Of a DNA stretch of 61,219 nucleotides, positions 25,061-25,378 are shown piece by piece. The notes under the pieces are model-generated. The model was given only the letters and a program-made list of their open reading frames with translations, did not search any database and was not told the origin of the DNA. Origin of the DNA: a virus. Lineage: Duplodnaviria; Caudoviricetes. How positions within the stretch are numbered: the first letter of the stretch is position 1; each line of letters opens with the position of its first letter. Made by a program: the position numbers and the translations under genes. The stretch lies in the IMG/VR virus record IMGVR_UViG_3300023074_000002, positions 1-61,219 of that record; one strand, given 5' to 3'.

Positions 25061-25109
25061 CAAAATTAAAGTACACTATTACAACAACAGGCGAAAGCCT
25101 TTAAGAATA

Positions 25110-25345
25110 TGAAAGTTGTTTGACGATTATTTGTGCCTTTGTTCGGACGCGGGTTCGATGCCCGCCGCCTCCACAATGTAGCCTATGGTTGCAGTATTGC
25201 CGCCTCCCTTGAGTAAGGAGGCATACGGGGGCGAATGGTTTTGACGGCAAAGTGTAGGGTAATAATAGACTTTCAGAAAGCCATAAACGGCAACTCAATA
25301 CAATTTCAACCAGCCGTTGCTTTTAAAGCAGCCGCTTAGTTGACG
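25110..25345 (+). ncRNA. ssrA: Circularly permuted (two-piece) tmRNA
   Basis: Acceptor piece ~25110-25173 (GAC-GCGGG-TTCGATG-CCCGC-CGCCTCC-A) precedes the coding piece starting GGGGGCG-AATGGTTTTGAC at 25227; G3:U70 and A73; tag ORF 25289-25339. Confidence 0.9.
25289..25339 (+). other. tmRNA tag reading frame (A)GNSIQFQPAVAFKAAA*
   Basis: ATAAAC precedes the GGC resume codon; C-terminal Ala-Ala degron, TAG stop. Confidence 0.85.
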
Positions 25346-25351
25346 AAACTT

Positions 25352-25378
25352 GCCCCCTGCGACAATGGGGGCTTTTTT
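25352..25378 (+). terminator. Intrinsic terminator after the tmRNA
   Basis: GCCCCC-N9-GGGGGC-TTTTTT. Confidence 0.85.

What the first reader, a model, noticed from the sequence alone, without database searches (positions are those of the whole stretch)
25089..25378. Phage-encoded, circularly permuted, minimal two-piece tmRNA in a Bacteroidota phage
Seen: the tmRNA 3' part comes first (GAC, T-arm GCGGG-TTCGATG-CCCGC, acceptor strand CGCCTCC-A at 25166-25173). A 53-nt two-hairpin spacer follows, then the 5' part (GGGGGCG-AATGGTTTTGAC from 25227). The acceptor stem has the AlaRS determinants G3:U70 and A73; CCA is not encoded. The pieces pair through helix 2 (GGCAAAG/CTTTGTT, TGAAAGT/ACTTTCA). 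ATAAAC|GGC opens the tag GNSIQFQPAVAFKAAA*, and a terminator follows. Only ~13 nt separate helix 2 from the resume codon and the acceptor piece is ~65 nt, so pk1-pk4 appear absent. Established: permuted tmRNA is known mainly from Alphaproteobacteria, some Betaproteobacteria, some cyanobacteria and jakobid mitochondria; Bacteroidota tmRNAs are one-piece with Gly-initial tags. Inference: an independent permutation of a Bacteroidota-type tmRNA, shrunk to ~180 nt, that uses host SmpB, RNase P and CCA-adding enzyme. I cannot verify novelty without a search.
Basis: partly seen in the sequence, partly recalled or inferred. Interest (0 to 1): 0.92.

Follow-up and report, generated by a model that had tools for sequence, protein, structure and literature searches.

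The report
Minimal two-piece tmRNA in Bacteroidota phage
This soil or leaf-litter phage of Bacteroidota-type bacteria carries a real, back-to-front and unusually small gene for tmRNA, the RNA that frees stalled ribosomes; it belongs to a phage family that databases already label simply as tmRNA, but no paper I could search describes that family as a lineage of its own.

Summary
ARAGORN calls a permuted tmRNA at 25083-25430(+) with the tag GNSIQFQPAVAFKAAA. Rfam's general permuted model RF04321 scores 64.5 bits against a cut-off of 47. The alpha, beta, cyano and one-piece models all fail.

The gene belongs to a family found in IMG/VR phage contigs, JGI metagenomes, Maribacter phage Panino and RefSeq crAss-like phages. 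A covariance model built without the window scores it 106 bits. Across 24 members, 94% of pair cells are paired and 26 of 33 pairs show compensatory changes.

Family traits are a 10-14 nt linker before the resume codon, which leaves no room for pk1. A hairpin follows within about 25 nt of the stop, so pk2-4 are absent too. CCA is not encoded, most tags start with Gly, and the tRNA-like domain carries signatures of class-Bacteroidia one-piece tmRNAs.

A Bacteroidota host is supported: 8 of 8 genomic terminase relatives lie in that phylum. The phage has no SmpB.

Novelty is limited. Phage two-piece tmRNAs are published, members of this family are annotated in GenBank and RefSeq, and this scan has reported the family before on other DNA. 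The lineage itself, pseudoknot-free and seen here only on viral or unbinned metagenome DNA, appears undescribed. Processing, charging and tagging are untested.

The parts
25089..25100 (+). GNRA-tetraloop hairpin AGGCGAAAGCCT, upstream copy. It brackets the tmRNA unit and may mark a boundary or processing site (inference).
   Evidence: Exactly two copies in the window, at 25089-25100 and 25392-25403; 0.23 expected by chance.
25110..25117 (+). Helix 2c, 5' strand (TGAAAGTT), near the start of the acceptor piece.
   Evidence: Pairs with 25268-25275 in the minimum-energy fold. In the family, 8 of 8 pairs of this helix show changes on both sides and 95.4% of cells are paired.
25126..25131 (+). Helix 2b, 5' strand (ATTATT).
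   Evidence: Pairs with 25258-25263. In the family, 6 of 6 pairs show compensatory changes and 82.6% of cells are paired.
25136..25143 (+). Helix 2a, 5' strand (CCTTTGTT), directly before CGGAC.
   Evidence: Aligned as paired by RF04321. In the family, 6 of 7 pairs show compensatory changes and 92.2% of cells are paired.
25149..25165 (+). T-arm GCGGG-TTCGATG-CCCGC.
   Evidence: In the family 99.2% of cells are paired and 4 of 5 pairs covary.
25166..25173 (+). Acceptor stem 3' strand CGCCTCC plus discriminator A73. The next bases are CAA, so CCA is not encoded.
   Evidence: G3:U70 is kept in 24 of 24 family members.
25174..25226 (+). Intervening sequence of 53 nt, removed on maturation (inferred). 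It has two hairpins (25177-25193 and 25202-25222) with a conserved AGTATT between them and a conserved loop CTTGAGTAA.
   Evidence: Fold. Five related spacers give 14 predicted pairs, 8 with compensatory changes; the loop and the AGTATT are invariant.
25227..25245 (+). 5' end of the coding piece: acceptor 5' strand GGGGGCG plus the D-loop analogue AATGGTTTTGAC. RNase P would cut before G25227 (inferred).
   Evidence: The U before GAC is shared with 23 of 29 Bacteroidia one-piece tmRNAs.
25246..25275 (+). Helix 2, 3' strands: 2a at 25246-25252, 2b at 25258-25263 and 2c at 25268-25275.
25276..25288 (+). Single-stranded A-rich linker of 13 nt (GAAAGCCATAAAC) between helix 2c and the resume codon. 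It is too short for pk1.
   Evidence: The linker is 10-14 nt (median 12) in 23 of 24 aligned family members; the 24th is a partial hit.
25289..25339 (+). Tag reading frame GNSIQFQPAVAFKAAA plus the stop TAG. The stop lies in a hairpin spanning 25306-25343.
   Evidence: ARAGORN and the fold. The family tag pattern is conserved at the peptide level.
25352..25378 (+). 3' hairpin GCCCCC-TGCGACAAT-GGGGGC followed by a T-run. It is the intrinsic-terminator-like end of the coding piece.
   Evidence: L216 has the identical hairpin, and every one of the 23 members examined has a predicted hairpin within about 25 nt of the stop.
25392..25403 (+). GNRA hairpin AGGCGAAAGCCT, downstream copy.
   Evidence: A rhizosphere contig that diverges after 25379 carries the same hairpin motif downstream (table 7).

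Best explanation
The locus is a working gene for a circularly permuted, two-piece, pseudoknot-free tmRNA. A virulent-looking siphovirus-like phage of Bacteroidota carries it; the host is probably in Chitinophagales or a neighbouring order.

Proposed mechanism, with shown and inferred steps marked:
1. One precursor is transcribed rightwards and ends at the terminator at 25352-25378. The terminator motif is shown; the promoter is not identified.
2. Host RNase P cuts before G25227. Host 3'-end enzymes trim after A25173 and the CCA-adding enzyme adds CCA. This releases the 53-nt spacer. The step is inferred from the anatomy; sampled host tmRNA genes also mostly lack CCA, 27 of 29.
3. The acceptor piece of about 70 nt and the coding piece of about 150 nt stay joined by the 7-bp acceptor stem and a three-part helix 2 of about 21 bp. 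The pairing is shown by covariation.
4. Host AlaRS charges the RNA through G3:U70 and A73. The determinants are present; charging is inferred.
5. Host SmpB and EF-Tu deliver it to stalled ribosomes. The phage has no SmpB.
6. Translation resumes at GGC 25289 and adds the 16-residue tag.

The likely benefit to the phage is extra ribosome-rescue capacity during infection. The family-specific tag ending [KR]-x-[AV]-A, unlike the host's [YF]-A-[LM]-A-A, may alter the fate of tagged proteins; that part is speculation.

The gene most likely descends from a Bacteroidia-type one-piece tmRNA by a permutation separate from the alpha, beta and cyano events.
For: Identity:
- ARAGORN calls a permuted tmRNA with a tag, and RF04321 gives 64.5 bits against a cut-off of 47.
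- Model R1 was built from only L196 and L216, without the window. It hits 25108-25290 over its full length at 106.1 bits, E = 7.6e-25.

Structure:
- On 24 family members, 94.0% of pair cells are paired. The shuffle control gives 70.8% (0 of 500 shuffles reach the observed value) and the slid controls give 46-53%.
- 26 of 33 pairs show changes on both sides, and G3:U70 is kept in 24 of 24.
- Acceptor pairs are 7 of 7 in 23 of 23 members.

Tag under peptide-level selection:
- 20 of 21 tags end in Ala, using all four Ala codons (GCT 7, GCG 5, GCA 5, GCC 3).
- K or R sits four residues from the end in 19 of 21.
- 16 of 21 start with Gly.

No pseudoknots: the linker is 10-14 nt in 23 of 24 members, and a hairpin follows the stop closely in all 23 examined.

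Conservation: contigs from soil, fermentation and rhizosphere metagenomes in different studies cover the gene at about 93-97% identity with unlike flanks.

Host:
- 8 of 8 genomic terminase relatives lie in Bacteroidota records (lineages checked for two of them).
- Family members occur in Maribacter phage Panino and in crAss-like phages.

Origin:
- T-class members have UUU before GGAC in 21 of 27 and AGC after GAC in 18 of 27. CCA is encoded in only 1 of 23.
- Bacteroidia one-piece tmRNAs match: UUU 18 of 29, AGC 20 of 29, U before GAC 23 of 29, CCA 2 of 29.
- Other permuted IMG/VR tmRNAs differ: AGC 6 of 64, CCA 45 of 64.

No SmpB and no tyrosine integrase were found in the complete genome.
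Against: - No expression, processing, charging or tagging data exist for this gene or, as far as I could find, for any member of the family.
- Alignment A6 was fitted to the model's structure, so its pair counts lean towards that structure.
- pk1 is reported as needed for tagging in E. coli. It can be replaced by a hairpin (PMC3968760, passages read), but here not even a hairpin replaces it, so function without it is an extrapolation.
- The tag ends AAA rather than the host-like LAA or MAA, so whether it acts as a degradation signal is unknown.
- The promoter and the 5' end of the acceptor piece are not defined. TAnnTTTG motifs are only weakly enriched in the window, 102 against 83.5 expected.
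- The host assignment rests on terminase relatives at only 37-51% identity, mostly in metagenome-assembled genomes.
Confidence: 0.8

Rival explanations
1. Decoy or inhibitor. The RNA binds host SmpB, AlaRS or EF-Tu and blocks host trans-translation instead of tagging, as proposed for the tRNA-like-domain-only molecule of mycobacteriophage DS6A.
For: Such a phage molecule is on record (PMC4131195 and PMC11915505, passages read). The absence of every pseudoknot could mean that mRNA-like function is impaired.
Against: The tag frame is kept across the family, with a conserved resume context, in-frame stops, a conserved C-terminal pattern and synonymous codon variation. A mere decoy would not need these.
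Confidence: 0.08
2. The permutation was not independent. The family was acquired from an alpha-, beta- or cyano-type two-piece tmRNA and later converged on Bacteroidia features because it must work with the host's SmpB, AlaRS and processing enzymes.
For: RF01851 (cyano) aligns over the whole length at 41.3 bits, the best of the lineage models. Long tags also occur in other phage permuted tmRNAs. The signatures shared with the host could be functional convergence.
Against: All three lineage models fall below their cut-offs: 41.3 against 70, 35 against 50 and 35.8 against 84. None reaches its cut-off in 12 further family members. Four separate signatures match Bacteroidia one-piece tmRNAs and not the 64 other permuted sequences.
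Confidence: 0.15
3. Non-functional remnant. The locus is an excision or recombination scar carrying the 3' and 5' ends of a host ssrA gene in swapped order.
For: Temperate elements often integrate into ssrA and carry its fragments (PMC9004378 passages). A circularised imprecise excision product could place a 3' fragment before a 5' fragment.
Against: No integrase was found in the complete genome. The compact architecture is conserved, with covariation, in dozens of unrelated phage contigs. The gene is far better conserved than its flanks in other metagenomes. 0 of 151 sampled Bacteroidia genomes hold a relative, so no donor locus is seen.
Confidence: 0.03
4. The host is not Bacteroidota, for example a cyanobacterium or a Firmicute, and the Bacteroidia-like features are coincidental.
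For: The best cultured-phage terminase match is Pseudanabaena phage Pan5 at 27.8%, followed by Clostridium and Marinitoga phages. No close cultured relative exists.
Against: 8 of 8 genomic terminase relatives, at 37-51% identity, are in Bacteroidota records. The family occurs in a cultured Flavobacteriia phage and in crAss-like phages. The features of the tRNA-like domain match Bacteroidia tmRNAs.
Confidence: 0.07

Closest known systems
Permuted (two-piece) tmRNAs of Alphaproteobacteria, a betaproteobacterial group and cyanobacteria (Rfam RF01849, RF01850, RF01851; merged tRNA-domain model RF04321)
   Same: The gene order is the same: 3' half of the tRNA-like domain, then a spacer, then the 5' half, helix 2 and the tag frame. 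The acceptor stem has G3:U70 and A73, the two pieces are held by the acceptor stem and helix 2, and pseudoknots are fewer than in one-piece forms. The window passes RF04321.
   Different: The window fails all three lineage models. Those lineages are described as keeping typically two pseudoknots, pk1 and pk2 (PMC3985003, passage); this one has none. CCA is not encoded, most family tags start with Gly, and the sequence signatures are of Bacteroidia type. Members were found on viral contigs and unbinned metagenome records but in 0 of 151 sampled genomes.
Published phage-encoded two-piece tmRNAs: Methylophilales phage Melnitz, pelagimyophages and cyanophages (PMC9004378)
   Same: These are also phage-borne permuted ssrA genes thought to support the hijacked translation machinery. 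That survey counted 53 two-piece forms among 133 unique phage tmRNAs.
   Different: By that paper's tree they are alpha- or cyano-type, and in Melnitz the gene carries a glutamine riboswitch. The present family is of Bacteroidia type, has no pseudoknots and has other spacer modules. I could not see that paper's Table S1, which may list Bacteroidota phages.
Annotated tmRNA genes of Maribacter phage Panino (PP540027.1, 27557-27889) and of RefSeq crAss-like phages cr125_1 (NC_055900.1), cr114_1 (NC_055897.1) and cr50_1 (NC_055868.1)
   Same: ARAGORN calls all four permuted, with Gly-initial tags. Panino scores 69.9 bits and cr114_1 55.8 bits over the full length of R1. Panino has the same layout: no encoded CCA, a 12-nt linker, a 16-residue tag and a hairpin after the stop.
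   Different: Nucleotide similarity to the window is too low for blastn. The crAss-like spacers exceed 130 nt, and in cr114_1 the spacer holds a tRNA-His. cr125_1 and cr50_1 score only 30.3 and 21.7 bits on R1. The records say only 'tmRNA' or 'SsrA'. The passages I read in the Panino paper (PMC11590407) do not say the gene is permuted.
One-piece tmRNAs of class Bacteroidia (Chitinophaga, Segetibacter and others; RF00023)
   Same: They share signatures of the tRNA-like domain: U before GAC, AGC after GAC and UUU before GGAC. Most lack an encoded CCA and most have Gly-initial tags.
   Different: They are about 350-410 nt, in standard gene order, and match the full-length RF00023 model. Their tags are 8-10 residues ending [YF]A[LM]AA. 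The phage gene is permuted, about 220 nt when mature, and has a 16-residue tag ending FKAAA.

Membership tests
tmRNA, permuted gene form (Rfam RF04321) | Scores at or above the curated gathering score of the family model. | tested here: met
   64.5 bits against 47, model positions 1-213 of 213.
tmRNA, permuted gene form (Rfam RF04321) | tRNA-like domain: 7-bp acceptor stem with G3:U70, discriminator A73, and a T-arm with a T-loop of the GGUUCGA type. | tested here: met
   Sequence read; 7 of 7 and 5 of 5 pairs; G:U kept in 24 of 24 relatives.
tmRNA, permuted gene form (Rfam RF04321) | The 3' half of the tRNA-like domain lies upstream of the 5' half, separated by an intervening sequence. | tested here: met
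   3' half ends at 25173 and 5' half starts at 25227, with a 53-nt spacer.
tmRNA, permuted gene form (Rfam RF04321) | The two pieces are held together by helix 2. | tested here: met
   Three helix-2 segments: 20 of 21 pairs show compensatory changes and 83-95% of cells are paired. The alignment was fitted to the model.
tmRNA, permuted gene form (Rfam RF04321) | A tag reading frame with a resume codon after an A-rich single strand, and a stop codon in or near a hairpin. | tested here: met
   ARAGORN tag, hairpin at 25306-25343, peptide-level conservation.
tmRNA, permuted gene form (Rfam RF04321) | Pseudoknot pk1 between helix 2 and the resume codon. This is typical of bacterial tmRNAs, including the two-piece forms. 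| tested here: not met
   The linker is 13 nt here and 10-14 nt in 23 of 24 relatives. RF04321 does not model pseudoknots, so this does not bar membership of that Rfam family.
tmRNA, permuted gene form (Rfam RF04321) | Processing into two RNAs, alanylation, SmpB-dependent tagging. | not testable with these tools
   No RNA run holds the stretch, and the phage has no SmpB.
alpha_tmRNA (RF01849) | Reaches the gathering score with the lineage-specific structure. | tested here: not met
   35 bits against 50; only model positions 82-175, the tRNA-like domain, align.
beta_tmRNA (RF01850) | Reaches the gathering score. | tested here: not met
   35.8 bits against 84.
cyano_tmRNA (RF01851) | Reaches the gathering score. 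| tested here: not met
   41.3 bits against 70.
One-piece tmRNA (RF00023) | Reaches the gathering score in standard gene order. | tested here: not met
   24.5 bits against 47.
Bacteroidia-type pseudoknot-free permuted tmRNA of phages (family defined here, model R1) | A full-length match to a model built from other members. | tested here: met
   106.1 bits, positions 1-190 of 190, with the model built from L196 and L216 only. In one search other permuted tmRNAs score 28-50 bits, many only over the tRNA-like domain, while weaker family members score down to 45 bits. The boundary is therefore not sharp.
Bacteroidia-type pseudoknot-free permuted tmRNA of phages (family defined here, model R1) | GGUUUUGAC in the 5' half, CCA not encoded, a 10-14 nt linker, a tag ending [KR]-x-[AV]-A, and a hairpin soon after the stop. 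| tested here: met
   All are present in the window. One deviation: after GAC the window has GGC where 18 of 27 members have AGC.

The most novel reading that the evidence does not exclude
The window belongs to a further, phage-borne lineage of two-piece tmRNA. On this reading the lineage arose by its own circular permutation of a Bacteroidia one-piece tmRNA and works with no pseudoknot at all. It carries a family-specific tag ending [KR]-x-[AV]-A that gives rescued proteins a fate different from the host's [YF]A[LM]AA tag, for example escape from, or redirection of, host proteolysis to the phage's benefit. The 'discarded' spacer is itself a functional RNA module: conserved covarying hairpins here, a small pseudoknot or even a tRNA in relatives.
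Probability: 0.3. Interest if true: 0.7.

Novelty: new variant of a known kind. Interest (0 to 1): 0.42.

Why it matters
Two things would matter if bench work confirms function.

First, a natural tmRNA with a tag frame but no pseudoknot would set a lower bound on what trans-translation needs. pk1 is reported as required in E. coli unless a hairpin replaces it.

Second, a phage-only family with its own conserved tag would show that phages of a major phylum bring a modified ribosome-rescue system into the cell. That phylum includes gut Bacteroidales (crAss-like phages), marine Flavobacteriia and soil Chitinophagales. The finding bears on phage takeover of translation and on defence systems that cut mRNA or tRNA.

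In practice, ARAGORN called the permuted form in only 11 of 22 family loci, and GenBank and RefSeq records label members just 'tmRNA'. A dedicated model would improve phage annotation, and the tRNA-like domain may be usable as a host-phylum marker.

As a single instance this window adds little, because the family was already seen elsewhere, including earlier in this scan.

Tried and rejected
Searches that found nothing
- blastn of the gene against 50,697 phage records gave no match at E = 1e-5. At E = 10, only the 30-40 nt T-arm region matched tmRNAs and tRNAs of unrelated phages. Panino's gene found only itself. blastn therefore cannot trace this family.
- My first strict DNA pattern found 0 stretches in IMG/VR. 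It demanded features particular to the window, such as GAATGGTTT.
- tblastn of the 527-aa protein and of the portal found nothing in cultured phages.

Routes to closer relatives
- The listing of cluster members gave no names.
- Terminase-related loci from IMG/VR and from genomes (L009-L082) held no tmRNA within the DNA fetched. They are distant relatives (51% identity or less), so this says little.

Expression
- No RNA holder is listed for the stretch, so expression and processing could not be examined. Read laying used contigs only.

Alignments
- MAFFT alignments A2, A3 and A4 were not used for structure. They put the window or L198 one column out of register in the D-region or helix 2a. The seed for R1 therefore used only L196 and L216.
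- In the tag table, the model alignment put L199 and L150 one base out of frame. I corrected the frame by hand.

Promoter
- The sigma-70 scan is at chance level, 8 found against 9.2 expected. TAnnTTTG is weakly enriched. No promoter is claimed.

Other phage tmRNAs
- The 'tmRNA' of Cellulophaga phages Calle and phi38:1 is not of this family.
- Flavobacterium phage elemoD, the Manatee Spring podovirus and Cellulophaga phi46:3 have no RF04321 match.

Genes looked for in the phage
- SmpB and tyrosine integrase: none found.

Literature
- PMC516066 (Sharkady and Williams 2004) is not held. What I say about the three lineages comes from passages in PMC11915505, PMC3968760, PMC3985003 and PMC9004378.
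- I did not see Table S2 of PMC11915505 or Table S1 of PMC9004378, because supplements are closed. They may already list these phage tmRNAs as permuted.
- The statement that no paper describes the lineage rests on searches of the held library only.

Duplicate matches
- Repeated matches on one metagenome contig (L280, L284, L306; also L273, L310) have identical cores and may be the same place stored more than once. I do not claim several copies.
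Full report
What is there
The window is a whole IMG/VR virus record of 61,219 bp that CheckV rates 100% complete. 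[quoted passage not shown]

In a 3-kb stretch with few long reading frames, where the two gene blocks diverge, ARAGORN finds the only tRNA-like gene of the window. It is a permuted tmRNA at 25083-25430(+) with the tag GNSIQFQPAVAFKAAA. Rfam's general permuted model RF04321 matches 25125-25339 at 64.5 bits, against a gathering score of 47, over its full length.

The precursor folds at -92.5 kcal/mol (z = -2.83 against 200 shuffles). The minimum-energy fold contains the acceptor stem, the T-arm, a three-part helix 2, two spacer hairpins, a hairpin holding the stop codon, and a terminator hairpin.

It does not belong to a described lineage
The models for the three known bacterial permuted lineages all fall below their cut-offs:
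- cyano RF01851: 41.3 against 70
- alpha RF01849: 35 against 50, tRNA-like domain only
- beta RF01850: 35.8 against 84

The one-piece model RF00023 gives 24.5 against 47.

RF04321 was made in 2025 by merging those three models and covers only the tRNA-like domain (PMC11915505, passages read). Passing it therefore says 'permuted tmRNA' but assigns no lineage.

It is one of a family
Most are of alpha, beta or cyano style: UUUCGAC, encoded CCA and tags starting with Ala.

Twenty-two of the 118 form a distinct class that the window shares. Its traits are GGUUUUGAC, usually UUUGGAC, no encoded CCA, a 39-60 nt spacer, mostly Gly-initial tags of 10-23 residues, and a hairpin soon after the stop.

A stricter pattern for this class finds 23 IMG/VR stretches, not capped. 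It also finds 45 stretches with 36 distinct cores in JGI and ENA metagenome records.

Model test and covariation
I built covariance model R1 from two members only, L196 and L216, with a hand-derived structure of 33 pairs. It hits the window, which it had never seen, at 106.1 bits over the full model, E = 7.6e-25. A positive control through the genome tool gave the same hit.

Class members score 45-235 bits over the full length. Other permuted tmRNAs score 28-50 bits, many only over the tRNA-like domain. The boundary is therefore soft near 45-50 bits.

On the 24-member alignment:
- 94.0% of pair cells are paired. Shuffled partners give 70.8% (0 of 500 shuffles reach the observed value) and slid partners give 46-53%.
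- 26 of 33 pairs show changes on both sides.
- G3:U70 is kept in 24 of 24.

The caveat is that this alignment was fitted to the model. However, thermodynamic co-folds of the two natural pieces, which do not use the model, recover a long helix 2 closed by a distal helix in most of the 23 members by my reading of the printed folds. In several, among them L183, L108, L166, L203, L150 and L214, the minimum-energy dimer shows a different pairing.

All 12 family loci that I gave to Rfam pass RF04321 (53.3-68.7 bits), and none reaches a lineage-specific cut-off. ARAGORN calls the permuted form in only 11 of the 22 IMG/VR class loci.

Minimal architecture
- The single strand between helix 2c and the resume codon is 13 nt here and 10-14 nt (median 12) in 23 of 24 aligned members. 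pk1 cannot form.
- After the stop codon, every one of the 23 members examined has a stable predicted hairpin within about 25 nt. It is often followed by a T-run, or by the next tRNA gene. There is nothing where pk2-4 would be.

Published descriptions give two-piece tmRNAs fewer pseudoknots than one-piece forms, 'typically' pk1 and pk2 (PMC3985003; PMC3968760; passages read). This family goes further.

The mature size I infer is an acceptor piece of about 66-70 nt plus CCA and a coding piece of about 150 nt.

In eight IMG/VR members and in Panino a tRNA gene ends just upstream of helix 2c. Processing of that tRNA would create the 5' end of the acceptor piece. The window has a GNRA hairpin in that position instead.

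The tag is selected as a peptide
- 20 of 21 tags end in Ala, using all four Ala codons.
- K or R sits four residues from the end in 19 of 21.
- 16 of 21 begin with Gly.
- All end at TAA or TAG.

The pattern ...[KR]-x-[AV]-A differs from the host-type tags that ARAGORN reads in 29 Bacteroidia one-piece tmRNAs. Those are mostly 9 residues ending [YF]A[LM]AA. This argues for real tagging and against a mere decoy. Whether this tag is a degradation signal is unknown.

Host and origin
A profile of the terminase found 8 relatives in the genome collection, all in Bacteroidota records (lineages checked for two of them). They are Ferruginibacter (two records), Chitinophaga, Segetibacter, Parafilimonas, and Chitinophagia, Sphingobacteriales and 'Bacteroidetes' metagenome-assembled genomes, at 37-51% identity. 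The DNA occurs in leaf-litter, soil, fermentation and rhizosphere metagenomes.

Family members sit in a cultured Flavobacteriia phage, Maribacter phage Panino, where the gene is annotated 'tmRNA SsrA'. ARAGORN calls it permuted, and R1 gives 69.9 bits. Members also sit in RefSeq crAss-like phages cr125_1, cr114_1 and cr50_1, which are annotated tmRNA and which ARAGORN calls permuted. Their R1 scores are 30.3, 55.8 and 21.7 bits.

The tRNA-like domain shares four signatures with class-Bacteroidia one-piece tmRNAs and not with the other permuted tmRNAs:

| Signature | This family | Bacteroidia one-piece | Other permuted in IMG/VR |
|---|---|---|---|
| U before GAC | by definition | 23 of 29 | C, by definition |
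| AGC after GAC | 18 of 27 | 20 of 29 | 6 of 64 |
| UUU before GGAC | 21 of 27 | 18 of 29 | 3 of 64 or fewer (not among the six commonest) |
| CCA encoded | 1 of 23 | 2 of 29 | 45 of 64 |

No sampled bacterial genome holds the permuted form. 0 of 151 genomes of the phylum pass RF04321, and the ten best sub-threshold hits are ordinary one-piece genes. 0 of 151 genomes of the class match R1 at E = 1e-5 or better.

Together this favours an independent permutation of a Bacteroidia-type tmRNA that now lives in phages. Convergence on host-imposed features cannot be excluded.

Conservation elsewhere
A 57,977-nt soil contig from another study shares only 24821-25376, with 32 other letters and 6 gaps, and is unlike the window on both sides. 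Shorter contigs from fermentation and rhizosphere runs cover 25110-25377 with 9 differences and 25151-25379 with 7. The listed differences cluster upstream of 25120 and in the last three bases of the spacer; 28 rows were not shown. The gene behaves as a conserved cassette in varying contexts.

How it most likely works
- Shown: the anatomy of a chargeable, two-piece tmRNA with a translatable tag and a terminator, structural covariation, peptide-level selection, and the absence of SmpB and of an integrase in the phage.
- Inferred: transcription as one precursor; RNase P cleavage before G25227; 3' trimming and CCA addition after A25173, as the host must also do for its own CCA-less ssrA genes (27 of 29); alanylation by host AlaRS; delivery by host SmpB and EF-Tu; and tagging from GGC 25289.
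- Proposed benefit, by analogy with published suggestions (PMC9004378): extra ribosome rescue in infected cells, possibly with a changed fate for tagged proteins.

Novelty
Phage-encoded two-piece tmRNAs are published. Members of this very family are deposited and annotated as tmRNA. Earlier follow-ups in this scan reached the same reading on other genomes.

What I could not find in the held literature is a description of a Bacteroidia-type, pseudoknot-free, phage-borne lineage. [quoted passage not shown] Its supplementary tables, which I could not see, may list these genes.

I rate the finding a new variant of a known kind, real and well supported as sequence. As a single instance it is of moderate interest.

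Noticed in passing
window 25174-25226; L198:5017-5072, L196:3001-3060, L183:13488-13542, L152:8938-8994: The spacer that should be discarded on maturation is conserved as a structured module. It has two covarying hairpins (8 of 14 pairs compensatory), an invariant AGUAUU between them and an invariant 9-nt loop CUUGAGUAA. No Rfam family matches it. Five further distinct metagenome cores carry the same loop motif.
   Followed up: partly
L216:5624-5672, L131:13535-13594, L187:6203-6248, L199:3045-3090; also L202:1211-1263, L214:6715-6769, L132:7187-7230: Other family members carry different conserved spacer modules. One looks like a compact H-type pseudoknot (CUAAC-CCGU..GUUAG-U-ACGG) whose second stem covaries. 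Another shares GUAGUUAGGC..UUGCAAACCUAC. Both were read by eye. No Rfam family reached its cut-off in these loci.
   Followed up: no
L262 (NC_055897.1, crAss-like phage cr114_1), locus positions 668-740 within the tmRNA at 567-1009: ARAGORN places a tRNA-His gene inside the long spacer of this phage's permuted tmRNA.
   Followed up: no
window 25089-25100 and 25392-25403: An exact 12-nt GNRA hairpin, AGGCGAAAGCCT, brackets the tmRNA unit. These are the only two copies in the window, with 0.23 expected by chance. A rhizosphere contig that diverges after 25379 has the same hairpin downstream.
   Followed up: partly
window 24821-25376: A 57,977-nt soil-metagenome contig shares just this block at about 93% identity and is unlike the window on both sides. 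The shared block reaches about 280 nt upstream of the tmRNA, into sequence of unknown function.
   Followed up: no
L226/L227 (Cellulophaga phages phi38:1 NC_021796.1 and Calle_1 NC_062744.1): The tmRNA reported or annotated in these phages is a different object. ARAGORN calls a standard-order gene with an odd 22-residue tag not ending in Ala-Ala. RF04321 gives only 25-26 bits and R1 17 bits.
   Followed up: partly
window 25101-25298 (-): A 65-codon TTG-started frame on the opposite strand overlaps the tmRNA. A similar antisense 'hypothetical protein' is annotated over Panino's tmRNA. Both are probably gene-caller artefacts.
   Followed up: no
L280, L284, L306 (one 165,133-nt metagenome contig); L273, L310 (one 88,704-nt contig): The family pattern is reported three times and twice on single contigs, with identical cores. 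These may be true repeats or the same place stored more than once.
   Followed up: no
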